From a virus (lineage: Duplodnaviria; Caudoviricetes): a stretch of DNA of 64,000 nucleotides. The position numbers and the translations under genes were made by a program. Where the stretch lies: IMG/VR virus record IMGVR_UViG_3300035180_001680. The stretch is one strand, 5' to 3'. The stretch's first letter is position 1. Each line of letters begins with the position of its first letter. This document shows positions 28,226-46,521 of this stretch, one piece after another. The notes beneath the pieces were generated by a model, which did no database searches, was not told the origin of the DNA, and worked only from the letters and a program-made list of their open reading frames with translations.

Positions 28226-28768
28226 TCATTTCGAAAGTCCTTTAATAAATTCGTTGTATGGTTTAGCCCGTTCTGTATCTTTTGCAATAGCAGGTTCTGC
28301 TTCAGGCCATCTTCCCTTGATGATATAACGAGCATACCAATAAGCCCACCGTGGATCTTTTGTAATAACATGTTCTGCTTTAGGAAATCTTCCTTTGATG
28401 ACATCACGAGCATACCAATAAGCCCAACGTGGATCTTTTGCAATAGCAGGTTCTCCTTCAGGCCATCTTCCTTCAATGACATCACGAGCATACAAAAAAG
28501 CCCATTCTGGATCTTTTGCAATAGCAGGTTCTCCTTCAGGCCACTTTCCCTTGATGACATCACGATCATAACTATAAGCCCACTGTGGATCTGTTGCAAC
28601 AACAGATTCTGCTTCTTTTTTCTGTTGTGCGTTTAATTTTCCACTTTTTAGTGCCTCATATGCCATCTGTGGAGTAGCCATGTGCTTTTTATCAAACCCA
28701 TGCAATTTTTCTGGGTTTGAATGATATTTGTATAAATCCATTGCTTCAAACAAGTCGCGTAATTTCAT
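28226..28768 (-). CDS. Array unit 27 (180 aa, 4 repeats, last)
   Basis: Head, repeats and cap. Confidence 0.9.
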   Translation of the reverse strand: MKLRDLFEAMDLYKYHSNPEKLHGFDKKHMATPQMAYEALKSGKLNAQQKKEAESVVATDPQWAYSYDRDVIKGKWPEGEPAIAKDPEWAFLYARDVIEGRWPEGEPAIAKDPRWAYWYARDVIKGRFPKAEHVITKDPRWAYWYARYIIKGRWPEAEPAIAKDTERAKPYNEFIKGLSK

Positions 28769-29385
28769 TTCGAAAGTCCTTTGATGAATTCGTTGTAATT
28801 TTTAGCCCACTTTGGATCTTTTGCAATAGCAGGTTCTCCTTCAGGCCATCTTTCTTTGATGACATCACGAGCATACCCATAAGCCCACTTTGGATCTTTT
28901 GCAATGACAGATTCTGCTTCAGGCCATCTTCCTTTGATGACATCACGAGCATACCCATAAGCCAACTCTGGATCTTTTGCAATAGCAGGTTCTCCTTTAG
29001 GAAACCTTCCTTTGATGACCTCACGAGCATACCAATAAGCCAAACGTGGATCTTTTGCAACAGTAGGTTCTGCTTCAGGAAATCTTTCCTTGATGACATC
29101 ACGAGCATAAATATAAGCCAAACGTGGATCTTTTGCAATGACAGATTCTCCTTTAGGCCATCTTCCCTTGATGACATCATGAGCATACTCATAAGCCCAC
29201 TTTGTGTCTGTTGCAACAACAGATTCTGCTTCTTTCTTTTGTTGTGCATTCAGTTTTCCACTCTCCAGTGCCTCATATGCCATCTCAGGCGTAGCCATGT
29301 GCTTTTTATCAAACCCATGCAATTTTTCTGGGTTTGAATGATATTTGTATAAATCCATTGCTTCGAGTAAGTCACGTAGTTTCAT
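28765..29385 (-). CDS. Array unit 26 (206 aa, 5 repeats)
   Basis: Leader MKLRDLLEA. Confidence 0.9.
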   Translation of the reverse strand: MKLRDLLEAMDLYKYHSNPEKLHGFDKKHMATPEMAYEALESGKLNAQQKKEAESVVATDTKWAYEYAHDVIKGRWPKGESVIAKDPRLAYIYARDVIKERFPEAEPTVAKDPRLAYWYAREVIKGRFPKGEPAIAKDPELAYGYARDVIKGRWPEAESVIAKDPKWAYGYARDVIKERWPEGEPAIAKDPKWAKNYNEFIKGLSK

Positions 29386-30080
29386 TTCGAAAGTCCTTTG
29401 ATGTCTTGTTTATACCGTTTAGCATATGTTGGATCTTTTGCAATAGCAGGTTCTTATTCAGGCCATCTTCCTTTGATGACAGAACGAGCATAATTATAAG
29501 TCCAACGTGGGTCTTTTGCAATAGCAGGTTCTGCTTCAGGCCATCTTCCTTTGACGGCATCACGAGCATACAAAAAAGCCCATTCTGGATCTTTTGCAAT
29601 AGCAGGTTCTCCTTTAGGAAATCTTTCTTTGATAACATTACTAGCATACCAATAAGCCCACCGTGGATCTTTTGCAATAGCAGGTTCTCCTTCAAACCAT
29701 CTTCCTTTGATGACATCACGAGCATACAAAAAAGCCCATTCTGGGTCTTTTGCAATAGCAGGTTCTGCTTCAGACCATCTTCCTTTGATGACATCACGAG
29801 CATACAAAAAAGCCCATTCTGGGTCTTTTGCAATAGCAGGTTCTGCTTCAGACCATCTTCCTTTGATGACATTACGAGCATAACTATAAGCCCACTGTGG
29901 ATCTGTTGCAACAACAGACTCTGCTTCTTTTTTCTGTTGTGTGTTTAATTTTCCACCTTTTAATGCAAAAAAAGCCATCTCAGGAGTAGCCATGTGTTTT
30001 TTATCAAACCCATGCAATTTTTCTGGATTCGAGTGATATTTGTATAAATCCATTGCTTCAAACAAGTCGCGTAATTTCAT
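29382..30080 (-). pseudogene. Array unit 25, premature stop (208 of 232 aa, C-cap lost)
   Basis: In-frame TAA at 29454-29456 (GAA TAA GAA where siblings have GAA GCA/GGA GAA). The cap downstream is intact and in frame. Confidence 0.8.
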
Positions 30081-30775
30081 TTCGAAAGTCCTTTGATGTC
30101 TTGTTTATACCGTTTAGCATATGTCGGATCTTTTGCAATAACAGGTTCTGCTTCAGGAAATCTTCCTTTGATGACATTACGAGCATAATACGAAGCCCAC
30201 TGTGGATCTTTTGCAATAACAGATTCTGCTTCAGGAAATCTTCCTTTGATGACATTACGAGCATACCAATAAGCATACTGTGGATCTTTTGCAATAGCAG
30301 GTTCTCCTTCAGGCCATCTTCCTTTGATGGCACCACGAGCATACTCATAAGCCCATTCTGGATGTTTTGCAATAGCAGGTTCTCCTTCAGGCCATCTTCC
30401 TTTAATGACATCATGAGTATACCAATAAGCATACTCTGGATGTTTTGCAATAGCAGGTTCTCCTTCAGGCCATCTTCCTTTAGTGACATCATGAGTATAC
30501 CAATAAGCATACTTTGGATCTTTTGCAATAGCAGGTTCTCCTTCAGGCCATCTTCCTTTGATGGCATCACGAGCGTACTCATAAGCCCACCGTGGATCTG
30601 TTGCAACAACAGACTCTGCTTCTTTTTTCTGTTGTGCGTTTAATTTTCCACCTTTTAATGATTCAAAAGCCATCTCAGGCGTAGCCATGTGCTTTTTATC
30701 ATATCCATGCAATTTCTCTGGATTTGAGTGGTATTTGTATAAGTCCATTGCTTCGAATAAGTCACGTAATTTCAT
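30077..30775 (-). CDS. Array unit 24 (232 aa, 6 repeats)
   Basis: Cap allele DPTYAKRYKQDIKGLSK. Confidence 0.9.
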   Translation of the reverse strand: MKLRDLFEAMDLYKYHSNPEKLHGYDKKHMATPEMAFESLKGGKLNAQQKKEAESVVATDPRWAYEYARDAIKGRWPEGEPAIAKDPKYAYWYTHDVTKGRWPEGEPAIAKHPEYAYWYTHDVIKGRWPEGEPAIAKHPEWAYEYARGAIKGRWPEGEPAIAKDPQYAYWYARNVIKGRFPEAESVIAKDPQWASYYARNVIKGRFPEAEPVIAKDPTYAKRYKQDIKGLSK

Positions 30776-31314
30776 TTTGAAAGTCCTTTAATAAATTCGT
30801 TGTATGGTTTAGCCCACTCTGGATGTTTTGCAATAACAGGTTCTGCTTCAGGAAATCTTTCTTTGATGACATCACGAGCATACCCATAAGCCCACTCTGG
30901 ATCTTTTGCAATAACAGATTCTGCTTCAGGAAATCTTCCTTTGATGACATTACGAGCATACTCATAAGCCCAATCTGCTTTTTTTGCAATAGCAGGTTCT
31001 CCTTCAGGCCATCTTCCTTTGATGACATAACGAGCATACAAACAAGCCCAACGTGTATCTTTTGCAATGACAGATTCTCCTTTAGGAAATCTTTCTTTGA
31101 TGACATTACGAGCATACAAACAAGCCCATCTTGGATCTGTTGCAACAACAGACTCTGCTTCTTTTTTCTGTTGTGCGTTTAATTTTTCACCTTTTAATGC
31201 TTCAAAAGCCATCTCAGGCGTAGCCATGTGCTTTTTATCATATCCATGTAACTTCTCTGGATTTGAATGATATTTATATAAATCCATTGCTTCGAACAGA
31301 TCACGTAATTTCAT
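30772..31314 (-). CDS. Array unit 23 (180 aa, 4 repeats)
   Basis: Head, repeats and cap. Confidence 0.9.
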   Translation of the reverse strand: MKLRDLFEAMDLYKYHSNPEKLHGYDKKHMATPEMAFEALKGEKLNAQQKKEAESVVATDPRWACLYARNVIKERFPKGESVIAKDTRWACLYARYVIKGRWPEGEPAIAKKADWAYEYARNVIKGRFPEAESVIAKDPEWAYGYARDVIKERFPEAEPVIAKHPEWAKPYNEFIKGLSK

Positions 31315-31931
31315 TTCGAAAGTCCTTTAACAAATTCTTTGTATTTTTTAGCCCATTCTGGATCTTTTGCAATAACAGGTTCTGCTTCAGGAAATCTTCT
31401 TTTAATGACATCACGAGCATACCCATAAGCCCACTGTGGATCTTTTGCAATAGCAGGTTCTCCTTTAGGAAATCTTCTTTCGATGACTTGTTGAGCATAC
31501 ACATAAGCCCAATCTGCTTTTTTTGCAATAGCAGGTTCTCCTTTAGGAAATCTTTCCTTGATGACATTACGAGCATACAAACAAGCCCACTTTGGATCTT
31601 TTGCAATAGCAGGTTCTCCTTCAGGCCATCTTCCTTTAGTGACATCATGAGTATACCAATAAGCATACTCTGGATCTTTTGCAATAGCAGGTTCTGCTTC
31701 AGGAAATCTTCCTTTGATGATATCATCAGCATAATTATAAGCCCAACGTGGATCTTTTGCAATAACAGACTCTGCTTCTTTTTTCTGTTGTGCGTTTAAT
31801 TTTCCACTCTTTAGTGCTTCAAAAGCCATCTCAGGAGTAGCCATGTGTTTTTTATCATATCCATGTAACTTCTCTGGATTTGAGTGGTATTTGTATAAAT
31901 CCATTGCTTCGAATAAGTCACGTAATTTCAT
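31311..31931 (-). CDS. Array unit 22 (206 aa, 5 repeats)
   Basis: Head, repeats and cap. Confidence 0.9.
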   Translation of the reverse strand: MKLRDLFEAMDLYKYHSNPEKLHGYDKKHMATPEMAFEALKSGKLNAQQKKEAESVIAKDPRWAYNYADDIIKGRFPEAEPAIAKDPEYAYWYTHDVTKGRWPEGEPAIAKDPKWACLYARNVIKERFPKGEPAIAKKADWAYVYAQQVIERRFPKGEPAIAKDPQWAYGYARDVIKRRFPEAEPVIAKDPEWAKKYKEFVKGLSK

Positions 31932-32548
31932 TTTGAAAGTCCTTTGATGAATTCGTTGTATGGCTTAGCCCATTCTGGAACTTTTGCAATAACAGGTTCT
32001 GCTTCAGGAAATCTTCCTTTGATGACAGAACGAGCATAATATGAAGCCCACTGTGGATCTCTTGCAATAGCAGGTTCTCCTTCAGTCCATCTTCCTTTGA
32101 TGACATCACTAGCATACCAATAAGCCCAACGTGGATCTTTTGCAATAACAGATTCTGCTTCAGGAAATCTTCCTTTGATGACATCACGAGCATAATATGA
32201 AGCCCACTCTGGATGTTTTGCAATAACAGATTCTGCTTCAGGAAATCTTCCTTTGATGACTTGTTGAGCATACACATAAGCCCAATCTGCTTTTTTTGCA
32301 ATAACAGGTTCTGCTTCAGTAAATCTTCTTTCGATGACTTGTTGAGCATACCTATAAGCCCACCGTGGATCTTTTGCAACAACAGACTCTGCTTCTTTTT
32401 TCTGTTGTGCATTTAATTTTCCACTCTTTAATGCTTCAAAAGCCATCTCAGGCGTGGCCATGTGTTTTTTATCATATCCATGCAATTTTTCTGGGTTTGA
32501 ATGATATTTGTATAAATCCATTGCTTCGAATAGATCACGCAATTTCAT
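31928..32548 (-). CDS. Array unit 21 (206 aa, 5 repeats)
   Basis: Head, repeats and cap. Confidence 0.9.
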   Translation of the reverse strand: MKLRDLFEAMDLYKYHSNPEKLHGYDKKHMATPEMAFEALKSGKLNAQQKKEAESVVAKDPRWAYRYAQQVIERRFTEAEPVIAKKADWAYVYAQQVIKGRFPEAESVIAKHPEWASYYARDVIKGRFPEAESVIAKDPRWAYWYASDVIKGRWTEGEPAIARDPQWASYYARSVIKGRFPEAEPVIAKVPEWAKPYNEFIKGLSK

Positions 32549-33165
32549 TTCGAAAGTCCTTTAATAAATTCGTTGTATTTTTTAGCCCACTCTGGATTTT
32601 TTGCAATAGCAGGTTCTGCTTCAGGCCATCTTCCTTTGATGACATCACGAGCATACCAATAAGCATACTGTGGATCTTTTGCAATAGCAGGTTCTCCTTC
32701 AGGCCATCTTCCTTTGATGCTATCATCAGCATACTCATAAGCCCATTCTGGATCTTTTGCAATAGCAGGTTCTGCTTCAGGCCATCTTCCTTTGATGACA
32801 TTATGAGCATAATATGTGGCCCACTCTGGATGTTTTGCAATAACAGGTTCTGCTTTAGGCCATCTTCCTTCAATGATATCATCAGCATACCAATAAGCCC
32901 ACTGTGGGTTTTTTGCAATAACAGGTTCTGCCTCAGGCCATCTTCCTTGGATGATAGAACGAGCATACCAACAAGCAAACTTTGGATCTGTTGCAACAAC
33001 AGACTCTGCTTCTTTTTTCTGTTGCGCATTCAGTTTTCCACTCTCTAGTGCCTGATATGCCATCTCAGGCGTAGCCATGTGCTTTTTATCATATCCATGT
33101 AACTTCTCTGGATTTGAGTGGTATTTGTATAAATCCATCGCTTCGAATAAGTCACGTAGTTTCAT
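32545..33165 (-). CDS. Array unit 20 (206 aa, 5 repeats)
   Basis: Head, repeats and cap. Confidence 0.9.
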   Translation of the reverse strand: MKLRDLFEAMDLYKYHSNPEKLHGYDKKHMATPEMAYQALESGKLNAQQKKEAESVVATDPKFACWYARSIIQGRWPEAEPVIAKNPQWAYWYADDIIEGRWPKAEPVIAKHPEWATYYAHNVIKGRWPEAEPAIAKDPEWAYEYADDSIKGRWPEGEPAIAKDPQYAYWYARDVIKGRWPEAEPAIAKNPEWAKKYNEFIKGLSK

Positions 33166-33782
33166 TTTGAAAGTCCTTTGATGAATTCGTTGTATTTTTT
33201 AGCCCACTTTGGATCTTTTGCAATAACAGGTTCTCCTTCAGGCCATCTTCCTTTGATGACATAACGAGCATACTCATAAGCCCAACCTGGATCTTTTGCA
33301 ATAACAGGTTCTGCTTCAGTCCATCTTCCTTTGATGACATAACGAGCATACCAATAAGCCCACCTTGGGTCTTTTACAATAGCAGGTTCTGCCTTAGGCC
33401 ATCTTCCTTGGATGATAGAGCGAGCATATTCATAAGCCCAATCTGCTTTTTTTGCAATAACAGGTTCTGCTTCAGGCCATCTTCCTTTGATGACTTGTTG
33501 AGCATACACACAAGCCCAATCTGCTTTTTTTGCAATAACAGGTTCTGCTTCAGGAAATCTTCTTTCGATGACTTGTTGGGCGTACTCATAAGCCCACCGT
33601 GGATCTGTTGCAACAACAGATTCTGCTTCTTTCTTTTGTTGTGCATTTAATTTTCCACTCTTTAGTGCCTCATAAGCCATCTCAGGAGTAGCCATGTGTT
33701 TTTTATCATATCCATGTAACTTCTCTGGATTTGAATGATATTTGTATAAATCCATTGCTTCGAATAGATCACGTAATTTCAT
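33162..33782 (-). CDS. Array unit 19 (206 aa, 5 repeats)
   Basis: Head, repeats and cap. Confidence 0.9.
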   Translation of the reverse strand: MKLRDLFEAMDLYKYHSNPEKLHGYDKKHMATPEMAYEALKSGKLNAQQKKEAESVVATDPRWAYEYAQQVIERRFPEAEPVIAKKADWACVYAQQVIKGRWPEAEPVIAKKADWAYEYARSIIQGRWPKAEPAIVKDPRWAYWYARYVIKGRWTEAEPVIAKDPGWAYEYARYVIKGRWPEGEPVIAKDPKWAKKYNEFIKGLSK

Positions 33783-34399
33783 TTTGAAAGTCCTTTGATG
33801 TCTTGTTTATACCGTTTAGCATATGTTGGGTCTTTTGCAATAGCAGGTTCTCCTTCAATCCATCTTCCTTTGATGACATCACTAGCATACCAATAAGCCC
33901 AACGTGGATCTTTTGCAATAACAGATTCTGCTTCAGGAAATCTTCCTTTGATGACATCGCGAGCATACAACCAAGCCCATTCTGGATCTTTTACAATAAC
34001 AGATTCTGCTTCAGGAAATCTTCCTTTAATGACATCATGAGCGTACATATAAGCCGTCCGTGGATTTTTTGCAATAACAGATTCTGCTTCAGGAAATCTT
34101 CCTTTGATGAAATCACGAGCATACAAAAAAGCCCATTCTGGATCTTTTGCAATAACAGATTCTGCTTCAGGCCATCTTCCTTTGATGATATCATCAACAT
34201 ACCTATAAGCCCAACGTGGATCTTTTGCGATAACAGACTCTGCTTCTTTTTTCTGTTGTGCATTTAATTTTCCACCTTTTAATGCTCCAAAAGCCATCTC
34301 AGGCGTAGCCATGTGTTTTTTATCAAACCCATGCAATTTTTCTGGGTTTGAATGATATTTGTATAAATTCATCGCTTCGAATAAGTCGCGTAGTTTCAT
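33779..34399 (-). CDS. Array unit 18 (206 aa, 5 repeats)
   Basis: Cap allele DPTYAKRYKQDIKGLSK. Confidence 0.9.
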   Translation of the reverse strand: MKLRDLFEAMNLYKYHSNPEKLHGFDKKHMATPEMAFGALKGGKLNAQQKKEAESVIAKDPRWAYRYVDDIIKGRWPEAESVIAKDPEWAFLYARDFIKGRFPEAESVIAKNPRTAYMYAHDVIKGRFPEAESVIVKDPEWAWLYARDVIKGRFPEAESVIAKDPRWAYWYASDVIKGRWIEGEPAIAKDPTYAKRYKQDIKGLSK

Positions 34400-35094
34400 T
34401 TCGAAAGTCCTTTGATGAATTCGTTGTATTTTTTAGCCCACCTTGGATCTTTTACAATAGCAGGTTCTCCTTTAGGAAATCTTCCGTTGATGACATCATG
34501 AGCATACCAATAAGCCGTCCGTGGATTTTTTGCAACAGCAGGTTCTCCCTTAGGAAATCTTTCCTCGATGACATCACGAGCATACCAATAAGCATACTCT
34601 GGATCTTTTGCAATAACAGGTTCTGCTTCAGGCCATCTTCCTTTGATGACATTACGAACATACTCATAAGCCCATTCTGGATCTTTTGCAATAACAGGTT
34701 CCGCTTTAGGCCACCTTCCCTTAATGACATCATGAGCATACCAATAAGCATACTCTGGATCTTTTGCAATAACAGGTTCCGCTTTAGGCCACCTTCCCTT
34801 AATGACATCATGAGCATACCAATAAGCATACTCTGGATCTTTTGTAATAACAGGTTCCGCTTTAGGAAATCTTCCTTCAATGACATCACGAGCATACCAA
34901 TAAGCCCACTTTATATCTGTTGCAACAACAGATTCTGCTTCTTTTTTCTGTGGTGTATTTAATTTTCCACTCTTTAGTGCCTCATATGCCATCTGTGGAG
35001 TAGCCATGTGCTTTTTATCATATCCATGCAATTTCTCTGGATTCGAGTGATATTTGTATAAATCCATCGCTTCGAATAGATCACGTAGTTTCAT
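34396..35094 (-). CDS. Array unit 17 (232 aa, 6 repeats)
   Basis: Contains an exact 78-bp tandem duplication at 34676-34844. Confidence 0.9.
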   Translation of the reverse strand: MKLRDLFEAMDLYKYHSNPEKLHGYDKKHMATPQMAYEALKSGKLNTPQKKEAESVVATDIKWAYWYARDVIEGRFPKAEPVITKDPEYAYWYAHDVIKGRWPKAEPVIAKDPEYAYWYAHDVIKGRWPKAEPVIAKDPEWAYEYVRNVIKGRWPEAEPVIAKDPEYAYWYARDVIEERFPKGEPAVAKNPRTAYWYAHDVINGRFPKGEPAIVKDPRWAKKYNEFIKGLSK

Positions 35095-35789
35095 TTTGAA
35101 AGTTCTTTGATGTATTGTTTATAATATTTAGCATACTCTGGATCTTTTGCAATAACAGATTCTCCTTTAGGAAATCTTTCTTTGATGACATCATGAGCGT
35201 ACATATAAGCCGTCCGTGGATTTTTTGCAATAGCAGGTTCTCCTTCAGGCCATCTTCCTTTGATGACATCACGAGCATACCAAAAAGCATAATCTGGATC
35301 TTTTGCAATGACAGATTCTCCTTTAGGAAATCTTTCTTTAATGATATAACGAGCATACTCATAAGCCCAATCTGCTTTTTTTGCAACAGCAGGTTCTCCT
35401 TTAGGAAATCTTTCTTTGATGATATCATGAGCGTACATATAAGCCATCCGTGGATCTTTTGCAATAACAGATTCTGCTTCAGGAAATCTTCCTTTGATGA
35501 AATCACGAGCATACAAAAAAGCCCATTCTGGATCTTTTGCAATAGCAGGTTCTCCTTTAGGAAATCTTTCTTTGATGACATTACTGACATACCAATAAGC
35601 CCACTTTGTATCTGTTGCAACAACAGACTCTGCTTCTTTTTTCTGTTGTGCATTTAGTTTTCCACTCTTTAGTGCCTCATATGCCATCTCAGGCGTAGCC
35701 ATGTGCTTTTTATCATATCCATGCAATTTCTCTGGATTTGAGTGGTATTTGTATAAGTTCATCGCTTCGAATAAGTCACGTAATTTCAT
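35091..35789 (-). CDS. Array unit 16 (232 aa, 6 repeats)
   Basis: Head, repeats and cap. Confidence 0.9.
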   Translation of the reverse strand: MKLRDLFEAMNLYKYHSNPEKLHGYDKKHMATPEMAYEALKSGKLNAQQKKEAESVVATDTKWAYWYVSNVIKERFPKGEPAIAKDPEWAFLYARDFIKGRFPEAESVIAKDPRMAYMYAHDIIKERFPKGEPAVAKKADWAYEYARYIIKERFPKGESVIAKDPDYAFWYARDVIKGRWPEGEPAIAKNPRTAYMYAHDVIKERFPKGESVIAKDPEYAKYYKQYIKELSK

Positions 35790-36484
35790 TTTGAAAGTCC
35801 TTTGATGAATTCTTTGTAATTTTTAGCCAGGTGTGGATCTTTTGCAATGACAGATTCTGCTTCAGGAAATCTTTCCTTGATGACATCACGAGCATACCCA
35901 TAAGCATAATCTGGATCTTTTGCAATAGCAGGTTCTCCTTTGGGAAATCTTTCTTTAATGACATCACGAGCATAACTATAAGCCCACCGTGGATCTTTTG
36001 CAATAACAGGTTCTGCTTCAGGAAATCTTCCTTTGATGACAGAATGAGCATACCAATAAGCATACTCTGGATCTTTTGCAATAACAGGTTCTCCTTTAGG
36101 AAATCTTCCTTTGATGACATCACGAGCATAATATGAAGCCCACCGTGGATCTTTTGCAATAACAGACTCTGCTTCAGGAAAGCTTCCTTTGATGACATCA
36201 CGAGCATAATATGAAGCAAACTTTGGATCTGTTGCAACAACAGGTTCTCCTTCAGGAAATCTTCCTTTGATGACATCACGAGCATAATATGAAGCAAACT
36301 TTGGATCTGTTGCAACAACAGATTCTGCTTCTTTCTTTTGTTGTGCATTCAGTTTTCCACTCTCTAGTGCCTCATAGGCCATCTCAGGAGTAGCCATGTG
36401 TTTTTTATCATATCCATGTAACTTCTCTGGATTCGAGTGGTATTTGTATAAATCCATTGCTTCGAGTAGATCACGCAATTTCAT
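35786..36484 (-). CDS. Array unit 15 (232 aa, 6 repeats)
   Basis: Leader MKLRDLLEA. Tandem DPKFASYYARDVIKG modules. Confidence 0.9.
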   Translation of the reverse strand: MKLRDLLEAMDLYKYHSNPEKLHGYDKKHMATPEMAYEALESGKLNAQQKKEAESVVATDPKFASYYARDVIKGRFPEGEPVVATDPKFASYYARDVIKGSFPEAESVIAKDPRWASYYARDVIKGRFPKGEPVIAKDPEYAYWYAHSVIKGRFPEAEPVIAKDPRWAYSYARDVIKERFPKGEPAIAKDPDYAYGYARDVIKERFPEAESVIAKDPHLAKNYKEFIKGLSK

Positions 36485-37718: not shown

Positions 37719-38335
37719 TTCGAAAGTCCTTTGATGAATTCGTTGTAATTTTTAGCCAGGTGTGGATCTTTTGCAATAGCAGATTCTGCTTCAGGAAATC
37801 TTCCTTTAATGACATAACGAGCATACGTATAAGCCCACTGTGGATCTTTTGCAATGACAGATTCTCCTTTAGGAAATCTTTCTTTGATGACTTGTTGAGC
37901 ATACACATAAGCCCAATCTGCTTTTTTTGCAATAGCAGGTTCTCCTTTAGGAAACCTTCCTTCGATAACATTACGAGCATACAAACAAGCCCACTCTGGA
38001 TCTTTTGCAATGACAGATTCTCCTTTAGGAAATCTTTCTCCAATGACATCTATAGCATACTCATAAGCCAACTCTGGATCTTTTGCAATAATAGGTTCTC
38101 CTTTAGGAAACCTTCCTTTGATGACATTACGAGCATACTCATAAGCAAACTTTGGATCTGTTGCAACAACAGATTCTGCTTCTTTTTTCTGTGGTACATT
38201 TAATTTTCCACTCTTTAGTGCCTCATAGGCCATCTCAGGAGTAGCCATGTGCTTTTTATCATATCCATGTAACTTCTCTGGATTTGAATGATATTTGTAT
38301 AAATCCATCGCTTCGAATAGATCACGTAATTTCAT
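37715..38335 (-). CDS. Array unit 12 (206 aa, 5 repeats)
   Basis: Head, repeats and cap. Confidence 0.9.
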   Translation of the reverse strand: MKLRDLFEAMDLYKYHSNPEKLHGYDKKHMATPEMAYEALKSGKLNVPQKKEAESVVATDPKFAYEYARNVIKGRFPKGEPIIAKDPELAYEYAIDVIGERFPKGESVIAKDPEWACLYARNVIEGRFPKGEPAIAKKADWAYVYAQQVIKERFPKGESVIAKDPQWAYTYARYVIKGRFPEAESAIAKDPHLAKNYNEFIKGLSK

Positions 38336-38952
38336 TTTGAAAGTCCTTTGATGAATTCGTTGTATGGCTTAGCCCACTGTGGATCTTTTGCAATAACAGG
38401 TTCTGCTTCAGGCCATCTTCCTTTGATGACATGACGAGCATACCAATAAGCCCAACCTGGATCTTTTGCAATAACAGGTTCTGCTTCAGGCCATCTTCCC
38501 CTGATGACATCACGAGCATACGGACAAGCCCGCGTTGGATCTGTTGCAATAGCAGGTTCTCCTTTAGGAAATCTTCCTTTGATGATATCATCAGCATAAT
38601 TATAAGCCCAACGTGGATCTTTTGCAATAACAGGTTCTGCTTCAGGAAATCTTTCTTTGATGACATCACGAGCATACAAAAAAGCCCATTCTGGATCTTT
38701 TGCAATAGCAGGTTCTCCTTTAGGAAATCTTTCTTTGATGACATTACAAGCATACCAATAAGCCCACTGTGGGTTTTTTGCAACAACAGACTCTGCTTCT
38801 TTTTTCTGTTGTGCGTTTAATTTTCCATCTTTTAATGCTCCACAAGCCATCTCAGGCGTAGCTATGTGCTTTTTATCATATCCAGGTAACGTCTCTGGAT
38901 TCGAGTGATATTTGTATAAATCCATCGCTTCGAATAGATCACGTAATTTCAT
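38332..38952 (-). CDS. Array unit 11 (206 aa, 5 repeats)
   Basis: Head variant ETLPGYDKKHI, shared with unit 2. Confidence 0.9.
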   Translation of the reverse strand: MKLRDLFEAMDLYKYHSNPETLPGYDKKHIATPEMACGALKDGKLNAQQKKEAESVVAKNPQWAYWYACNVIKERFPKGEPAIAKDPEWAFLYARDVIKERFPEAEPVIAKDPRWAYNYADDIIKGRFPKGEPAIATDPTRACPYARDVIRGRWPEAEPVIAKDPGWAYWYARHVIKGRWPEAEPVIAKDPQWAKPYNEFIKGLSK

Positions 38953-39645
38953 TTTGAAAGTCCTTTGATGAATTCGTTGTATTTTTTAGCCCATCTTAGA
39001 TCTTTTACAATAGCAGGTTCTCCTTCAGGCCATCTTCCTTCGATGAAATCACGAGCATACCAATAAGCATACTGTGGGTTTTTTGCAATAGCCGGTTCTC
39101 CTTCAGGCCATTTTCCTTTGATGATATCATCAACATATATAAGCCCAATTTGCTTTTTTTGCAATAACAGATTCTGCTTCAGGAAATCTTCCTTTGATGA
39201 CATTATAAGCATACTCATAAGCCCACCGTGGATCTTTTGCAATAGCAGGTTCTCCTTCAGGCCATCTTCCTTTAATGAAATCGCGAGCATAATTATAAGC
39301 CCAATGTGGATCTTTTGCAATAACAGGTTCTACTTCAGGCCATCTTCCTTTGATGACATAACGAGCATACCAATAAGCCCATTCTGGATCTTTTGCAATA
39401 ACAGATTCTGCTTTAGGCCATCTTCCTTTAATGACATAATGAGCATACTCATAAGCCCATTCTGGATCTTTTGCAACAACAGATTCTGCTTCTTTTTTCT
39501 GTTGTGCATTCAGTTTTCCACTCTTTAGTGCCTCATATGCCATCTGTGGAGTAGCCATGTGTTTTTTATCATATCCATGTAACTTCTCTGGATTCGAGTG
39601 GTATTTGTATAAATCCATTGCTTCGAATAGATCACGTAGTTTCAT
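38949..39645 (-). pseudogene. Array unit 10, frameshifted (would be 232 aa, 6 repeats)
   Basis: 697 nt instead of 699. A 2-nt loss in a TATATAT run at about 39135-39141 gives ...WAYIC*, and the rest continues in another frame. Confidence 0.8.
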
Positions 39646-40262
39646 TTCGAAAGTCCTTTGATGTCTTGTTTATACCGTTTAGCATATGTTGGATCTTTTG
39701 CAATAACAGGTTCTGCTTCAGGAAATCTTCCTTTGATGACATCACGAGCATACCCATAAGCAAACTCTGGATCTTTTGCAATAACAGGTTCTGCTTTAGG
39801 CCATCTTCCTTTGATGACATCATGAGTATACCAATAAGCCGACTTTGGATATTTTGCAATAACAGATTCTGCTTCAGAAAATCTTCCTTTGATGACATCA
39901 CGAGCATAATATGAAGCCCAACCTGGATCTTTTGCAATAACAGGTTCTGCTTCAGGCCATCTTCCTTTGATGACATCACGAGCATACAAACAAGCCCACT
40001 GTGGATTTTTTGCAATAGCAGGTTCTCCTTTAGGAAATCTTCTTTCGGTGACATCACGAGCATAATAATGAGCCAACTCTGGAACTTTTGCAATAACAGA
40101 CTCTGCTTCTTTTTTCTGTTGTGCGTTTAATTTTCCACTCTTTAGTGCCTCATAGGCCATCTCAGGAGAAACCATGTGCCTTTTATCATATCCATGTAAC
40201 TTCTCTGGATTTGAGTGGTATTTGTATAAATTCATTGCTTCGAATAAGTCACGTAGTTTCAT
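39642..40262 (-). CDS. Array unit 9 (206 aa, 5 repeats)
   Basis: Cap allele DPTYAKRYKQDIKGLSK. Confidence 0.9.
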   Translation of the reverse strand: MKLRDLFEAMNLYKYHSNPEKLHGYDKRHMVSPEMAYEALKSGKLNAQQKKEAESVIAKVPELAHYYARDVTERRFPKGEPAIAKNPQWACLYARDVIKGRWPEAEPVIAKDPGWASYYARDVIKGRFSEAESVIAKYPKSAYWYTHDVIKGRWPKAEPVIAKDPEFAYGYARDVIKGRFPEAEPVIAKDPTYAKRYKQDIKGLSK

Positions 40263-41730: not shown

Positions 41731-42815
41731 TTCGAAAGTCCTTTGATGAATTCGTTGTATTTTTTAGTCCATCTTGGATCTTTTGCAATAACAGATTCTG
41801 CTTCAGGCCATCTTCCTTTAATGACATGACGAGCATACCAATAAGCATACTCTGGATGTTTTACAATAGCAGGTTCTCCTTCAGACCATCTTCCTTTGAT
41901 GACATAACGAGCATACTCATAAGCCCACCGTGGGTTTTTTGCAATAACAGGTTCTCCTTCAGGCCATCTTCCTTTGATGACATAATGAGCATACACACAA
42001 GCCCACTGTGGATCTTTTGCAATAACAGGTTCTCCTTTAGGAAACCTTCCTTTGATGACATTGAGAGCATACTCATAAGCCAACTCTGGATCTTTTGCAA
42101 TAACAGGTTCTCCTTTAGGAAACCTTCCTTTGATGACATTGAGAGCATACGCATAAGCCCAATATGCTTTTTTTGCAATAGCAGGTTCTCCTTCAGGCCA
42201 TCTTCCTTTAATGAAATCACGAGCATACATATAAGCCCAACCTGGATCTTTTGCAATAACATGTTCTACTTCAGGCCATCTTCCTTTGATGACATAACGA
42301 GCATACTCACAAGCCCAATGTGGATCTTTTGCAATAGCAGGTTCTCCTTTAGGAAACCTTCCTTTAATGAAATCATGAGCATACGTATAAGCCCAATCTG
42401 CTTTTTTTGCAATAGCGGGTTCTCCTTCAGGCCATCTTCCTTTGATGAAATTACGAGCATACGCATAAGCCCACTTTGGATCTTTTGCAATAACAGGTTC
42501 TCCTTTAGTAAACCTTCCTTTGATGACATCTGTAGCATACTCATAAGCCAACTCTGGAACTTTTGCAATGACAGATTCTGCTTTAGGCCATCTTCCTTTG
42601 ATGACATTACGAGCATACCTATAAGCCCACGTTGTATCTGTTGCAACAACAGATTCTGCTTCTTTCTTTTGTTGTGCATTTAATTTTCCACTCTTTAGTG
42701 CCTCATAGGCCATCTCAGGAGTAGCCATGTGTTTTTTATCAAACCCATGCAATTTTTCTGGATTCGAGTGGTATTTGTATAAATCCATTGCTTCGAATAA
42801 GTCACGTAGTTTCAT
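41727..42815 (-). CDS. Array unit 6 (362 aa, 11 repeats, longest)
   Basis: Head, 11 repeats and cap. Confidence 0.9.
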   Translation of the reverse strand: MKLRDLFEAMDLYKYHSNPEKLHGFDKKHMATPEMAYEALKSGKLNAQQKKEAESVVATDTTWAYRYARNVIKGRWPKAESVIAKVPELAYEYATDVIKGRFTKGEPVIAKDPKWAYAYARNFIKGRWPEGEPAIAKKADWAYTYAHDFIKGRFPKGEPAIAKDPHWACEYARYVIKGRWPEVEHVIAKDPGWAYMYARDFIKGRWPEGEPAIAKKAYWAYAYALNVIKGRFPKGEPVIAKDPELAYEYALNVIKGRFPKGEPVIAKDPQWACVYAHYVIKGRWPEGEPVIAKNPRWAYEYARYVIKGRWSEGEPAIVKHPEYAYWYARHVIKGRWPEAESVIAKDPRWTKKYNEFIKGLSK

Positions 42816-43585
42816 TTCGAAAGTCCTTTGATGAATTCGTTGTATTTTTTAGCCCACTGTGGATCTTTTGCAATAGCAGGTTCTCCTTCAGGCCATCTTC
42901 CTTTGATGACATCACGAACATACAAAAAAGCCAACTCTGGATTTTTTGCAATAACAGGTTCTGCTTCATGCCATCTTCCTTTGATGACATAACGAGCATA
43001 CGCATAAGCATACTCTGGAACTTTTGCAATAGCAGGTTCTCCTTTAGGAAACCTTCCTTTGATAACATTATGAGCATACAAATAAGCCAACTCTGGATCT
43101 TTTGCAAAGACATATTCTCCTTTAGGAAATCTTTCTTTAATGACATCTTCAGCATACTCATAAGCCCACTGTGGATTTTTTGCAATAGCAGGTTCTCCTT
43201 CAGGCCATCTTCCTTTGATGACACCACGAGCATACCAATAAGCATACTTTGGATCTTTTGCAATAGCAGGTTCTCCTTCAGGCCATCTTCCTTTGATGAC
43301 ATAATGATACTCATAAGCCCACTTTGGATCTTTTGCAATAACAGGTTCTGCTTCAGGCCATCTTCCTTTGATGACATTACAAGCATACTCATAAGCCCAC
43401 CGTGGATCTGTTGCAACAACAGATTCTGCTTCTTTCTTTTGTTGTGCATTCAGTTTTCCACTCTCTAGTGCCCCATAGGCCATCTCAGGCGTAGCCATGT
43501 GTTTTTTATCATATCCATGCAATTTTTCTGGATTTGAGTGGTATTTGTATAAATCCATTGCTTCAAATAAGTCACGTAATTTCAT
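42812..43585 (-). CDS. Array unit 5 (257 aa, 7 repeats, one codon deleted)
   Basis: Repeat 2 reads AYEYHYVIK, lacking the conserved Ala9. Confidence 0.9.
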   Translation of the reverse strand: MKLRDLFEAMDLYKYHSNPEKLHGYDKKHMATPEMAYGALESGKLNAQQKKEAESVVATDPRWAYEYACNVIKGRWPEAEPVIAKDPKWAYEYHYVIKGRWPEGEPAIAKDPKYAYWYARGVIKGRWPEGEPAIAKNPQWAYEYAEDVIKERFPKGEYVFAKDPELAYLYAHNVIKGRFPKGEPAIAKVPEYAYAYARYVIKGRWHEAEPVIAKNPELAFLYVRDVIKGRWPEGEPAIAKDPQWAKKYNEFIKGLSK

Positions 43586-44358
43586 TTTGAAATTCCTTTG
43601 ATGAATTGGTTATACTGTTTAGCATATGTTGGGTCTTTTGCAATAACAGGTTCTGCTTCAGGAAATCTTCCTTTGATGACATCACGAGCATACTCATAAG
43701 CCCACCGTGGATCTTTTGCAATAGCAGGTTCTCCTTCAGGCCATCTTCCTTTAATGACAGAACGAGCATAGTATAAAGCCCAATCTGCTTTTTTTGCAAT
43801 AACAGGTTCTCCTTCAGACCATCTTCCTTTGATGACATCACGAGCATAACCATAAGCCCAATCTGGATCTTTTGCAATAGCAGGTTCTCCTTTAGGCCAT
43901 CTTCCTTTGATGATATTACGAGCATACTCATAAGCCCACTGTGGACCTGTTGCAATAGCAGGTTCTCCTTTAGGCCATCTTCCTTTGATGACATCACGAG
44001 CATACCAATAAGCCAACCGTGGATCTTTTGCAATAACAGGTTCTGCTTCAGGCCATCTTCCTTTGATGGCATCGCGAGCATACCAATAAGCCAACTCTGG
44101 ATCTTTTGCAATAACAGGTTCTGCTTCAGGCCATCTTCTTTTGATGACAGAACGAGCATACCAATGAGCATACTCTGGATCTGTTACAATAACAGATTCT
44201 GCTTCTTTCTTTTGTTGTGCGTTTAATTTTCTACTCTTTAGTGCTTTAAAAGCCATCTCAGGCGTAGCCATGTGCTTTTTATCAAACCCATGCAATTTTT
44301 CTGGGTTTGAATGATATTTGTATAAATCCATCGCTTCGAATAAGTCACGTAGTTTCAT
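43582..44358 (-). CDS. Array unit 4 (258 aa, 7 repeats)
   Basis: Head, repeats and cap. ATGA overlap. Confidence 0.9.
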   Translation of the reverse strand: MKLRDLFEAMDLYKYHSNPEKLHGFDKKHMATPEMAFKALKSRKLNAQQKKEAESVIVTDPEYAHWYARSVIKRRWPEAEPVIAKDPELAYWYARDAIKGRWPEAEPVIAKDPRLAYWYARDVIKGRWPKGEPAIATGPQWAYEYARNIIKGRWPKGEPAIAKDPDWAYGYARDVIKGRWSEGEPVIAKKADWALYYARSVIKGRWPEGEPAIAKDPRWAYEYARDVIKGRFPEAEPVIAKDPTYAKQYNQFIKGISK

Positions 44359-45209
44359 TTTGAAATTCCTTTGATGTATTGTTTATAATATTTAGCATAC
44401 TCTGGATGTTTTGCAATAACAGGTTCTCCTTCAGGAAATCTTCCTTTGATGACATCACGAGCATACCAATAAGCATACTCTGGATGTTTTGCAATAACAG
44501 GTTCTCCTTCAGGAAATCTTCCTTTGATGACATCACGAGCATACCAATATGCTGACCCTGACTCTTTTGCAATAGCAGGTTCTCCTTCAGTCCATCTTCC
44601 TTTAATTACAGAACGAGCATAATGTAAAGCCCACCGTGGATCTTTTGCAATAGCAGGTTCTGCTCCAGGCCATCTTCCTTTGATGACATAACAAGCATAC
44701 TCATAAGCCCACTCTAGATCTTTTACAATAGCAGGTTCTCCTTCAGGCCATCTTCCTTCGACGACATCGTGAGCGTACATATAAGCCATCCGTGGATCTT
44801 TTGCAATAACAGGTTCTGCTTTAGGCCATCTTCCCTTGATGACATCACGAGCATAAATATAAGCCCACTTTGGATCTTTTGCAATAACAGGTTCTGTTTT
44901 AGGCCATCTTCCTTTGATGACATAACGAGCATACCTATAAGCCCACTCTGGAACTTTTGCAAAGACAGATTCTCCTTCAGGCCATCTTCCTTTGATGACA
45001 TCACGAGCATAAATGTAAACCAACTCTGGATCTGTTGCAACAACAGATTCTGCTTCTTTTCTCTGTTGTGCGTTTAATTTTCCACCTTTTAATGCTTCAA
45101 AAGCCATCTCAGGAGTAGCCATGTGTTTTTTATCAAACCCATGCAATTTTTTTGGATTCGAGTGATATTTGTATAAATCCATTGCTTCGAATAAGTCGCG
45201 TAGTTTCAT
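44355..45209 (-). CDS. Array unit 3 (284 aa, 8 repeats)
   Basis: Contains an exact 78-bp tandem duplication near its 3' end. Confidence 0.9.
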   Translation of the reverse strand: MKLRDLFEAMDLYKYHSNPKKLHGFDKKHMATPEMAFEALKGGKLNAQQRKEAESVVATDPELVYIYARDVIKGRWPEGESVFAKVPEWAYRYARYVIKGRWPKTEPVIAKDPKWAYIYARDVIKGRWPKAEPVIAKDPRMAYMYAHDVVEGRWPEGEPAIVKDLEWAYEYACYVIKGRWPGAEPAIAKDPRWALHYARSVIKGRWTEGEPAIAKESGSAYWYARDVIKGRFPEGEPVIAKHPEYAYWYARDVIKGRFPEGEPVIAKHPEYAKYYKQYIKGISK

Positions 45210-45904
45210 TTCGAAAGTCCTTTGATGAATTCGTTGTATTTGTTAGCCCATTCTGGATCTTTTGCAATAGCAGGTTCTCCTTCAGGCCATCTTCCTTTAA
45301 TGACATGACGAGCATACACATAAGCCCACTTTGGATCTTTTGCAATAGCAGGTTCTGCTTCAGGAAATCTTTCTTTAATGACATAATAAGCATAATATGA
45401 AGCCGACTGTAGATCTTTTACAATAGCAGGTTCTCCTTCAGGCCATCTTCCTTTAATGACATGACGAGCATACAACCAAGCCCATTCTGGATCTTTTGCA
45501 ATAACAGGTTCTGCTTTAGTCCATCTTCCTTTAATGACATGATGAGCATACCAACAAGCCCACTCTGGATCTTTTGCAATAACAGGTTCTGCTTTAGGCC
45601 ATCTTCCTTTGATGACATAACGAGCATAACTATAAGCCCACTCTGAATCTTCTGCAATAACAGGTTCTACTTTAGGCCATCTTCCTTTGATGACATAACG
45701 AGCATACCTATAAGCCCATCGTGGATCTGTTGCAATAACAGACTCCGCTTCTTTTTTCTGTTGTGCGTTTAGTTTTCCACTCTTTAGTGCCTCATAGGCC
45801 ATCTCAAGAGTAATTATGTGCTTTTTATCATATCCAGGTAACGTCTCTGGATTCGAGTGATATTTGTATAAGTCCATTGCTTCAAATAAGTCACGTAATT
45901 TCAT
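45206..45904 (-). CDS. Array unit 2 (232 aa, 6 repeats)
   Basis: Head variant ETLPGYDKKHI, shared with unit 11. Confidence 0.9.
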   Translation of the reverse strand: MKLRDLFEAMDLYKYHSNPETLPGYDKKHIITLEMAYEALKSGKLNAQQKKEAESVIATDPRWAYRYARYVIKGRWPKVEPVIAEDSEWAYSYARYVIKGRWPKAEPVIAKDPEWACWYAHHVIKGRWTKAEPVIAKDPEWAWLYARHVIKGRWPEGEPAIVKDLQSASYYAYYVIKERFPEAEPAIAKDPKWAYVYARHVIKGRWPEGEPAIAKDPEWANKYNEFIKGLSK

Positions 45905-46521
45905 TTTGAAAGTCCTTTAATAAATTCGTTGTATTTGTTAGCCCACTGTGGATCTTTTGCAATAGCAGGTTCTCCTTTAGGAAACCTTCCTTTGATGACA
46001 TGACGAGCATACGCATAAGCCCAATATGCTTTTTTTGCAATAGCAGGTTCTGCTTCAGGCCATCTTCCTTTAATGACATAACGAGCATACCCACAAGCAT
46101 ACTCTGGATCTTTTGCAATAGCAGGTTCTCCTTTAGGAAACCTTCCTTTGATGACATTGAGAGCATACGCATAAGCCCAATATGCTTTTTTTGCAATAGC
46201 AGGTTCTGCTTCAGGCCATCTTCCTTTGATGACATCACGAGCATACGCATGAACCCACAGTAGATCTTTTGCAATAACAGGTTCCGCTTTAGGCCATCTT
46301 CCCTTAATGACATAATGAGCATACCAATAAGCCCACTGTGGATCTGTTGCAACAACAGACTCTGCTTCTTTTTTCTGTTGTGCGTTTAATTTTCCACCTT
46401 TTAATGCTCTAAAAGCCATCTCAGGCGTAGCTATGTGTTTTTTATCATATCCATGTAACTTCTCTGGGTTTGAATGATATTTGTATAAATCCATTGCTTC
46501 GAATAAGTCGCGCAATTTCAT
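45901..46521 (-). CDS. Array unit 1 (206 aa, 5 repeats)
   Basis: Head, repeats and cap. Starts 6 nt after the 526-aa ORF. Confidence 0.9.
   Translation of the reverse strand: MKLRDLFEAMDLYKYHSNPEKLHGYDKKHIATPEMAFRALKGGKLNAQQKKEAESVVATDPQWAYWYAHYVIKGRWPKAEPVIAKDLLWVHAYARDVIKGRWPEAEPAIAKKAYWAYAYALNVIKGRFPKGEPAIAKDPEYACGYARYVIKGRWPEAEPAIAKKAYWAYAYARHVIKGRFPKGEPAIAKDPQWANKYNEFIKGLSK

What the first reader, a model, noticed from the sequence alone, without database searches (positions are those of the whole stretch)
28226..46521. Repeat modules, half-modules and caps are reshuffled between non-adjacent genes
Seen: KKADWAYVYAQQVI occurs in units 12, 21 and 22, each with a different second half (KERFPKGES, KGRFPEAES, ERRFPKGEP). 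NPRTAYMYAHD is in units 16 and 18, DPRMAYMYAHD in 3 and 16, KKAYWAYAYALNVIKGRFPKGEP in 1 and 6, YAYWYTHDVTKG in 22 and 24, and DPEWAFLYARD in 11, 16, 18, 25 and 27. Cap PTYAKRYKQDIK is in units 9, 18, 24 and 25. Head ETLPGYDKKHI is DNA-identical over about 50 bp in units 2 and 11, 7 kb apart. A rare synonymous haplotype (ggttccgctttaggcca) is shared by units 1 and 17. Inference: gene conversion or unequal crossover assembles new combinations, loosely like VLR cassette assembly.
Basis: partly seen in the sequence, partly recalled or inferred. Interest (0 to 1): 0.82.

Follow-up and report, generated by a model that had tools for sequence, protein, structure and literature searches.

The report
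Recombination-shuffled repeat-gene array in a giant phage
An uncultured giant phage carries 27 back-to-back copies of a small helical-repeat protein gene whose sequence variants have been shuffled among all copies by recombination, so the locus looks like a fast-evolving repertoire of binding proteins rather than a set of simple duplicates.

Summary
Window 46521-28226 (minus strand) holds 27 translationally coupled paralogues. Each has a 59-aa head, 4-11 repeats of 26 aa (156 in all) and a 17-aa cap.

Four results point to recombination:
- 55-67% of informative site pairs show all four gametes.
- Incompatibility rises with distance (PHI z = -6 to -12). This holds for third codon positions alone.
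- LD is gone by about 30 bp.
- Distance matrices of head, repeat and cap segments are uncorrelated (Mantel r about 0).

Exact tracts of 50 bp or more are 4-8 times commoner than under free assortment. The longest is 100 bp.

A sister strain with a 98.6% identical upstream gene carries only 12 units. They are not collinear with the window's, yet they share the same two alleles at 41 of 59 head sites.

So gene conversion plus in-register unequal crossover is well supported. VLR-like programmed assembly is not: all units are complete genes, and I found no silent cassettes, deaminase or reverse transcriptase among the ORFs scanned. An assembly artefact is unlikely.

First readers of this scan flagged this same stretch several times. 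None flagged it on other DNA.

The parts
28226..46521 (-). Array of 27 tandem paralogous genes. Stop and next start overlap as ATGA. Each gene has a 177-nt head, n x 78-nt repeats (n = 4-11, 156 in all) and a 54-nt cap including the stop.
   Evidence: ORF list and parsing. Protein lengths are 180/206/232/258/284/362 aa, i.e. 76 + 26n.
46528..48108 (-). Upstream 526-aa gene, probably the first gene of the same operon. Its C-terminal 250 aa is a PcfJ-like domain that other phages fuse directly to the same 26-aa repeats.
   Evidence: Alignment with the N-domains of L001 and L004. AFDB fold hits to A0A5C7J2L6 residues 4-276 and to PcfJ-like proteins. The residues compared (411-526) are 97% identical to the sister strain (113 of 116).
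48133..48140 (-). TATAAATA, a match to the T4-type late-promoter consensus, upstream of the 526-aa gene.
   Evidence: Pattern search. The motif count in the window is not above chance, so this is a lead only.
38949..39645 (-). Unit 10, broken by a 2-nt deletion in repeat 5, near 39138.
   Evidence: An independent Logan contig of run X1 spans 39014-39184 with no difference.
29382..30080 (-). Unit 25, with an in-frame TAA at 29456-29454 in repeat 6. The cap still follows in frame.
   Evidence: Runs X2 and X3 read C on the + strand at 29456, giving an intact GAA. X1 matches the window.
42104..42189 (-). 86-nt exact tract in unit 6 (repeat 7), identical to 46122-46207 in unit 1 (repeat 3). Flanks are 81-86% identical.
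46122..46207 (-). Partner of the 86-nt tract, in unit 1 (repeat 3).
33859..33958 (-). Longest internal exact match (100 nt), in unit 18 repeats 4-5. It equals 32086-32185 in unit 21 repeats 3-4.
32086..32185 (-). Partner of the 100-nt tract, in unit 21.
35457..35544 (-). 88-nt exact tract covering unit 16 repeat 2 (DPEWAFLYARDF...). It equals 34067-34154 in unit 18 repeat 2.
34684..34844 (-). Unit 17 repeats 2 and 3 are an identical 78-nt tandem duplicate (91-nt exact match). This indicates a recent in-register one-repeat duplication. They also carry the rare GCG haplotype shared with unit 1.
45815..45871 (-). Head of unit 2, nt 34-90 (ETLPGYDKKHI). The 57 nt are identical to unit 11 at 38863-38919.
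38863..38919 (-). Partner tract in the head of unit 11.
37847..37924 (-). Unit 12 repeat 4 (KADWAYVYAQQVI...). Its first half is shared exactly with unit 21 r2 (32216-32293) and unit 22 r4 (31443-31520). Identity breaks near nt 38-41 of the repeat.
39642..39695 (-). Cap of type PTYAKRYKQDIK in unit 9. The same type is at 33779-33832 (unit 18), 30077-30130 (unit 24) and 29382-29435 (unit 25).
28587..28609 (.). A 10-bp-stem palindrome at the head/repeat junction (codons ESVVATDP). It is present in about 12 of the 27 units.
   Evidence: Function untested.

Best explanation
The 18.3-kb locus is a lineage-specific multigene family in an uncultured jumbo phage. The phage has T4-type core genes, and its DNA polymerase is 46% identical to those of Xanthomonas phages XacN1 and Xoo-sp13.

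The 27 genes encode small alpha-solenoid proteins. Each has a conserved head, 4-11 helical-hairpin repeats of 26 aa, and a cap.

The differences between copies are not a record of duplication followed by divergence. They form a pool of mostly two-state variants, carried in tracts of tens of bp up to about 100 bp. Homologous recombination between paralogues has reassorted these tracts among all units, regardless of position in the gene or in the array.

Two processes are inferred:
- Short-tract ectopic gene conversion, within a genome and probably also between co-infecting genomes. This moves half-repeats, repeats, head segments and caps.
- In-register unequal crossover or slippage. This changes the repeat number per gene in steps of 78 bp, and the gene number per array.

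Selection then acts on the result. It is purifying on the head and on scaffold positions, and diversifying on about eight repeat positions. The likely outcome is a repertoire of different binding surfaces.

Shown: the mosaic structure, the recombination signal, the copy-number differences between strains, and the predicted fold.

Inferred: the enzymes involved (the phage's own recombination system), the timescale (evolutionary, not per infection), and the binding function.
For: 1. Incompatible sites. 55-67% of informative site pairs are four-gamete incompatible. Incompatibility is lower for nearby sites: PHI z = -8.9 (heads), -12.3 (5-repeat units) and -9.1 (6-repeat units), all p <= 0.001. 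The signal survives dropping pairs 3 nt or less apart and using third codon positions only (z = -3.5 to -9).

2. LD decay. In heads, r2 falls from 0.28 at 2-3 nt to the baseline of about 0.04 by about 30 nt. The four-gamete fraction rises from 0.34 (10 nt or less) to 0.78 (31-60 nt).

3. No shared tree. Mantel r is about 0 between distance matrices of head thirds, repeat 1, repeat 2, last repeat and cap. Similarity is also uncorrelated with array position. Amino-acid states in the two repeat halves are only weakly associated.

4. The phylogeny is not a star. 48 of 66 variable head sites are non-singletons, and 61 of 66 are biallelic.

5. Long shared tracts. There is an excess of exact tracts. 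A GENECONV-like test gives 7 of 55 and 4 of 28 pairs at p < 0.01, with tracts of 40-80 nt.

6. Sister strain L007/L013.
- Its upstream gene is 98.6% identical in DNA, yet it has 12 units and no collinearity with the window's array.
- Only one unit pair reaches 94.5% identity. The rest sit at the paralogue level of 85-90%.
- Array 31-mer sharing is 0.35 against 0.73 for the flank.
- Divergence between the two arrays equals divergence within each array.
- 41 of 59 head columns and 27 of 37 repeat columns carry the same two alleles in both arrays.

7. Unequal crossover.
- Gene lengths follow 76 + 26n aa.
- Unit 17 has identical adjacent repeats.
- In another phage carrying the same repeat, two near-identical genomes differ by exactly one 78-bp repeat and 1 mismatch.
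- Three contigs of a related strain (run X4) join different window units in repeat register.

8. Selection. pN/pS is 0.10 in heads (pS 0.40) and 1.48 in repeats (pS 0.13).

9. Fold. The AlphaFold2 model has pLDDT 88 and is a helical-hairpin solenoid.
Against: - No single-molecule read spans the array, so the long-range order of units rests on a short-read assembly.
- Only one sister array was retrievable, because close relatives appear to be withheld by the tools. Discrete conversion events therefore could not be polarised or dated.
- Synonymous divergence in heads is high (pS 0.40), so some incompatibilities must come from repeated mutation.
- LD between neighbouring amino-acid positions could partly reflect structural coupling rather than linkage.
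- The binding function is wholly inferred.
- The PHROGs scan of unit 1 and the PDB fold search of unit 12 gave no match. The only Pfam hit, in units 1 and 6, is a partial HTH_35 match.
Confidence: 0.8

Rival explanations
1. Assembly artefact. A short-read assembler threaded arbitrarily through a repeat graph, or concatenated units from several strains, and so created false mosaics.
For: The genome is an uncultured metagenomic assembly. LD decays on a scale similar to k-mer lengths. Logan k=31 contigs break at both array edges.
Against: - 127 of 270 biallelic head site pairs 30 nt or less apart already show all four gametes. That distance is within a single read or k-mer.
- The longest internal exact repeat is 100 nt, so reads longer than that (typical Illumina lengths of about 150 nt; the library is not on record) could resolve the array uniquely.
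- Independent assemblies of the sister array from two samples agree at 5202 of 5203 nt and 6609 of 6609 nt.
- In run X1, unit-specific contigs have depths of 41-59 and the flanks 53-67. This fits all units sitting in one genome at one copy each. It is a rough check only.
- 25 of 27 ORFs are intact with exact 78-nt periodicity.
Confidence: 0.04
2. No recombination. Old duplicates diverged independently, and limited allowed states plus convergent selection and saturation recreate the same motifs.
For: Variation is concentrated at a few repeat positions with small residue alphabets. Head pS is 0.40, so multiple hits occur.
Against: - Homoplasy does not depend on distance, yet incompatibility and LD clearly do, even at third codon positions.
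- Shared peptides are also identical at synonymous sites, in tracts up to 100 nt.
- A rare synonymous GCG marks units 1 and 17 only.
- 61 of 66 variable head sites have just two alleles, and the same two recur in the sister strain.
Confidence: 0.04
3. Programmed or high-frequency diversification: a dedicated mechanism (VLR-like copy choice, cassette switching, or break-stimulated conversion at the junction palindromes) reshuffles units during each infection cycle.
For: - The reassortment is extreme.
- A conserved palindrome sits at the head/repeat junction in about 12 units.
- SbcC-like and 5'-3' exonuclease genes lie in the same window.
- The array differs strongly between strains with near-identical flanks.
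Against: - All units are complete genes in one operon. There is no expression site and no silent cassettes.
- No RT, deaminase or site-specific recombinase was found in the flanking ORFs scanned.
- Variable columns show no adenine bias.
- Run X1 shows one array haplotype with no alternative letters or joints at 10% or more. Two samples carry the sister array at 99.98-100% identity.
- Contigs would hide rare variants, so low-frequency switching is not excluded.
Confidence: 0.08

Closest known systems
Plant NLR / LRR resistance-gene clusters, e.g. the RPP8 family (PMC6771003, abstract only, from the listing)
   Same: Tandem complete paralogues built from short structural repeats. Intergenic exchange and unequal crossover create new repeat combinations and copy-number variation. 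Polymorphisms are shared between paralogues. Replacement changes concentrate at particular repeat positions.
   Different: This is a phage operon of 27 tiny alpha-helical repeat genes under translational coupling, not eukaryotic beta-strand LRR receptors. No signalling domain is attached. LD decays within about 30 bp, which from my own knowledge is far shorter than in such clusters.
Mosaic antigen gene families of parasites (Plasmodium var, trypanosome VSG; own knowledge)
   Same: A large family of paralogues recombines ectopically, so each gene is a mosaic of short shared blocks. No gene tree holds across segments.
   Different: Those families use one-at-a-time expression and mostly dispersed or subtelomeric copies. 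Here all units appear to be co-transcribed and co-translated, so the repertoire would be expressed together.
Lamprey VLR assembly
   Same: Short repeat modules with N- and C-terminal caps are combined through short stretches of homology.
   Different: VLR has an incomplete germline gene, flanking non-coding cassettes, somatic copy-choice and CDA deaminases. None of the features testable here was found.
Diversity-generating retroelements of phages
   Same: A phage-encoded means of varying a binding protein at selected positions.
   Different: No reverse transcriptase was found in the ORFs scanned. There is no template/variable repeat pair and no adenine-specific pattern.
Lineage-specific expansions in jumbo phages and giant viruses, e.g. 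about 35 zinc-ribbon copies in Bacillus phage G (PMC7824862); ankyrin/MORN/F-box families in giant viruses (own knowledge)
   Same: Dozens of small paralogues of one domain type in a very large viral genome.
   Different: For those expansions I found no description of near-free recombination among copies, nor of alleles shared between strains' arrays.

Membership tests
Multigene family evolving by ectopic gene conversion and unequal crossover | Several complete paralogues in tandem | tested here: met
   27 units, of which 25 have intact ORFs, with ATGA overlaps.
Multigene family evolving by ectopic gene conversion and unequal crossover | Statistical signal of recombination among paralogues: distance-dependent incompatibility, LD decay, significant shared tracts | tested here: met
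   PHI z = -6 to -12. LD gone by about 30 nt. GENECONV-like excess about 13 times chance.
Multigene family evolving by ectopic gene conversion and unequal crossover | Segment genealogies incongruent with a whole-gene tree | tested here: met
   Mantel r is about 0 between segments.
Multigene family evolving by ectopic gene conversion and unequal crossover | Copy-number variation of genes and repeats between close relatives | tested here: met
   27 against 12 units beside a 98.6% identical flank. A clean 78-bp indel between L001 and L003.
VLR-type somatic cassette assembly | An incomplete expressed gene flanked by non-coding donor cassettes | tested here: not met
   Every unit has its own start, head, cap and stop.
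VLR-type somatic cassette assembly | An associated AID/APOBEC-type deaminase | tested here: not met
   None among the flanking ORFs scanned with Pfam and PHROGs. The rest of the genome could not be searched, because the assembly is not held.
VLR-type somatic cassette assembly | Array differs between individuals of one population | tested here: inconclusive
   Run X1 contigs show a single haplotype, but contigs drop rare variants.
Silent-cassette antigenic variation (vls / pilS type) | One expression site plus promoterless partial cassettes | tested here: not met
   All units are complete and coupled. No terminator-like site lies on the coding strand inside the array.
Diversity-generating retroelement | Reverse transcriptase, a TR/VR pair, adenine-specific variation | tested here: not met
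   No RT in the ORFs scanned. The consensus base at variable columns is G 15, T 5, C 4, A 4.
Genomic accordion (recent gene amplification, poxvirus type) | Near-identical tandem copies | tested here: not met
   The best identity between any two same-length units is 84-89%.
Pfam PF13693 HTH_35 (winged helix-turn-helix) | A match to the whole 75-position domain model | tested here: not met
   The score passes the cut-off only for the 11-repeat unit, by summing repeated hits to model positions 32-50. The model is an all-helical solenoid.
Alpha-solenoid repeat proteins (HEAT-like / LRV / DUF4116-like) | Stacked helical hairpins with a regular period | tested here: met
   The AF2 model has pLDDT 88, with a helix of about 12 residues and one of about 7 per 26 aa. 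AFDB hits include DUF4116, LRV and HEAT entries at E about 0.02-0.05. No PDB match reaches E <= 0.001.

The most novel reading that the evidence does not exclude
The array is a selected combinatorial repertoire. The phage would express some 25 different solenoid binders at once, and rapid short-tract recombination would keep generating new surfaces against variable host targets such as defence proteins or receptors. That recombination might be stimulated by the palindrome at each head/repeat junction and by the phage's own SbcCD- and UvsX-type machinery. This would be a viral counterpart of NLR or VLR receptor repertoires. The link to the upstream PcfJ-like domain, which other phages fuse to the same repeats, would make the units interchangeable targeting subunits for one effector.
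Probability: 0.2. Interest if true: 0.88.

Novelty: new variant of a known kind. Interest (0 to 1): 0.66.

Why it matters
Recombination-driven mosaic gene families are textbook for parasites' antigens and for plant and animal immune receptors. I found no account of one in a bacteriophage.

Here the paralogues behave like a freely recombining population inside one genome. Strains whose neighbouring gene is 98.6% identical carry arrays of 27 and 12 units drawn from the same variant pool.

If the proteins are binders, this locus would show how a virus of bacteria keeps a diversified recognition repertoire without a DGR. It would also supply a natural library of a very short (26-aa) helical repeat scaffold.

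There is a practical lesson as well: ordinary gene trees and orthology calls are meaningless inside such arrays.

Tried and rejected
- The window's own assembly is not held. The nearest record, G001, lacks the family.
- A tblastn search of unit 6 against the phage collection found nothing.
- Head-bearing relatives were sought in viral contigs and metagenome contigs. The searches found only distant repeat proteins with other N-termini (L001-L006, L010-L012) or nothing. Close relatives seem to be withheld.
- A head-only protein search returned just P0001, P0003 and P0005. The 211-kb contig carrying P0003 could not be fetched.
- Look-ups of the window's flanking proteins returned only Logan contigs that stop at the array edges.
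- Foldseek against the PDB gave no significant match for the unit or for the upstream domain.
- The protein-atlas search gave only automatic HTH_35 labels on viral clusters.
- Literature searches found no description of this family, nor of recombining phage gene arrays.
- Runs X2-X4 hold 19-28% of the sampled array words, and X1 holds 42%. Short contigs seem under-indexed, so I did not use these shares as a measure of array divergence.
- Parts of the array lacking X1 contig cover say nothing either way.
- My first regex scan of the loci failed because of a pattern error. It was corrected in the next call.

Full report
**What is there**

Window 46521-28226, minus strand, is an unbroken run of 27 genes whose stop and next start overlap as ATGA.
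- Each gene has a 177-nt head, n x 78-nt repeats and a 54-nt cap. n is 4-11, giving 156 repeats in all.
- Unit 5 has a 3-nt deletion.
- Unit 10 has a 2-nt deletion near 39138 that breaks the frame.
- Unit 25 has an in-frame TAA at 29456-29454.

**Genomic context**

The surroundings are those of a jumbo phage with T4-type core genes:
- a family-B DNA polymerase with an intein (49066-52860);
- an SbcC-like gene;
- a 5'-3' exonuclease;
- a clamp-like gene;
- two homing endonucleases;
- structural genes.

The polymerase is 46% identical to those of Xanthomonas phages XacN1 and Xoo-sp13. The sequence occurs in sediment and microbial-mat metagenomes.

**Check of the observation**

- Unit 1 r3 and unit 6 r7 lie in an 86-nt exact tract.
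- Unit 16 r2 and unit 18 r2 lie in an 88-nt exact tract.
- Unit 18 r4-5 and unit 21 r3-4 share 100 nt.
- The heads of units 2 and 11 share 57 nt.
- The background identity around these tracts is 81-89%.
- The four PTYAKRYKQDIK caps differ by 0-3 nt. Their adjoining repeats differ by 9-17 of 78 nt, and their heads by 16-27 of 177 nt.
- The rare GCG haplotype is confined to unit 1 r1 and unit 17 r1-r3.

Arrays in which each alignment column is shuffled keep the composition but lose all linkage. Against them, exact matches of 50 nt or more number 152 against 18-34, and matches of 70 nt or more number 27 against fewer than 1.

**Is it recombination?**

*Four-gamete and PHI tests.*
- Among informative sites, 67% of pairs (heads), 60% (5-repeat units) and 55% (6-repeat units) fail the four-gamete test.
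- The failures are fewer for close sites: PHI z = -8.9, -12.3 and -9.1, p <= 0.001.
- Two changes inside one codon could mimic this signal. I therefore repeated the test without pairs 3 nt or less apart, and with third codon positions only. It holds, with z = -3.5 to -9.

*Decay with distance.*
- LD in heads falls to baseline by about 30 nt.
- The four-gamete fraction rises from 0.34 at 10 nt or less to about 0.75 beyond 30 nt.

*No whole-gene tree.*
- Distance matrices of head thirds, repeat 1, repeat 2, last repeat and cap are uncorrelated. Only the last two thirds of the head correlate clearly (r = 0.26).
- None of them tracks array position.

*Other checks.*
- A star phylogeny is excluded: 48 of 66 variable head sites are non-singletons.
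- A GENECONV-style run test finds 40-80-nt tracts in about 13 times more pairs than chance predicts.
- The nearest DNA neighbour of a repeat is five or more units away for 84 of 156 repeats, and sits at the same repeat index for only 32.
- The two halves of the repeat assort almost independently.

**Sister strain**

JGI contigs L007/L013 come from one sample and L008 plus L014 from another. They carry the same upstream gene at 98.6% DNA identity, followed by an array of only 12 units and an unrelated downstream flank.
- The two arrays are not collinear. One unit pair reaches 94.5% identity, and all the others sit at the paralogue level of 85-90%.
- Array 31-mer sharing is 0.35 against 0.73 in the flank.
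- Divergence between the arrays equals divergence within each.
- 41 of 59 head columns and 27 of 37 repeat columns carry the same two alleles in both arrays.

So both arrays draw on one old pool of variants that keeps being reassorted, and the arrays are remodelled much faster than the flank mutates.

**Evidence for unequal crossover**

- The gene-length series follows 76 + 26n aa.
- Unit 17 has identical adjacent repeats.
- In another phage lineage with the same repeat, two genomes differ by one clean 78-bp repeat and a single mismatch.
- Three contigs of a related strain (run X4) join different window units exactly in repeat register.

**Artefact?**

An assembly artefact is unlikely, for these reasons.
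- The mosaic is already complete within 30 nt, inside any read.
- The longest internal repeat is 100 nt.
- The sister array was assembled identically from two samples: 99.98% over 5203 nt and 100% over 6609 nt.
- In run X1, unit-specific contigs match the window without a difference, including across the frameshift and the stop codon. Their depths are close to those of the flanks.
- Runs X2 and X3 read GAA at the stop codon of unit 25, so that break is strain-specific.

The long-range unit order is still unverified by single molecules.

**Not programmed assembly**

- All units are complete genes in one apparent operon.
- No terminator-like site lies on the coding strand.
- No reverse transcriptase, deaminase or dedicated recombinase appeared in the flanking ORFs scanned.
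- Variable columns are not adenine-biased.
- Run X1 shows a single array haplotype.

The VLR, silent-cassette, DGR and accordion models each fail a defining feature.

**What the proteins are**

- AlphaFold2 gives a confident helical-hairpin solenoid (pLDDT 88). It has no significant PDB match. Weak AFDB resemblance is to DUF4116, LRV and HEAT entries.
- The Pfam HTH_35 hit is a repeated partial match.
- pN/pS is 0.10 in heads and 1.48 in repeats. The replacement excess lies at repeat positions 7, 11, 15, 17, 20 and others.
- More than 1500 metagenomic proteins carry the repeat, all of them uncharacterised and mostly from viral clusters. They often have other N-terminal domains.
- The C-terminal domain of the upstream 526-aa gene is PcfJ-like. 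In other phages, and in AFDB entry A0A5C7J2L6, it is fused to these same repeats.

A binder repertoire is the most economical reading, but it remains an inference.

**Verdict**

Gene conversion plus unequal crossover is well supported as an evolutionary process. The VLR analogy is not supported. The closest known behaviour is that of NLR/LRR clusters and parasite mosaic antigen families, seen here in a phage.

Noticed in passing
window 46528-48108 (-); L001 5190-9303; L004 641-1930: The C-terminal 250 aa of the gene just upstream of the array is a PcfJ-like domain (conserved GTKWCT and KYQFH motifs). In other phage contigs, and in AFDB entry A0A5C7J2L6, it is fused directly to the same 26-aa repeats. 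Here the domain and the repeats are in separate genes.
   Followed up: partly
window 28587-28609, 33601-33623, 36303-36325, 38154-38176, 43404-43426, 45028-45050 and others: A 10-bp-stem palindrome lies exactly at the head/repeat junction (codons ESVVATDP) in about 12 of 27 units. It could be an mRNA hairpin, a recombination-prone DNA structure, or a by-product of the coding sequence.
   Followed up: no
window 49066-52860 (-): The family-B DNA polymerase is interrupted by an intein carrying a LAGLIDADG domain (residues about 658-995).
   Followed up: no
window 19201-20721 (+) and 22396-23898 (-): Two paralogous large homing-endonuclease-like genes (phrog_3339, DUF7487; the second also has a Vsr/MTES_1575-type nuclease domain) sit on opposite strands close together.
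   Followed up: no
L007/L013 7180-11799: In the sister strain the array is followed by different genes (113 aa, a Peptidase_C1-like 259 aa, 174 aa and others) with no DNA similarity to the window downstream of 28226. The locus therefore borders a variable region or a rearrangement.
   Followed up: partly
window 28110-28120: Contigs of runs X3 and X4 match both sides but carry other letters across about 10 bp just downstream of the array. This is a small strain-specific replacement.
   Followed up: no
L009 7981-10624: A different T4-like phage contig has four members of the family (207, 252, 181 and 207 aa, with a related DLYKYHSNPE head). They lie directly after the portal, prohead protease, scaffold and major capsid genes, which fits a head-associated role.
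   Followed up: no
window 31271-31278 (-): A point variant in the head of unit 23 creates a second exact TATAAATA inside the array. This may be chance.
   Followed up: no
window 2-8341 (+): A very large ORF of at least 2779 aa runs off the window start and is followed by a 784-aa gene. Neither was examined.
   Followed up: no
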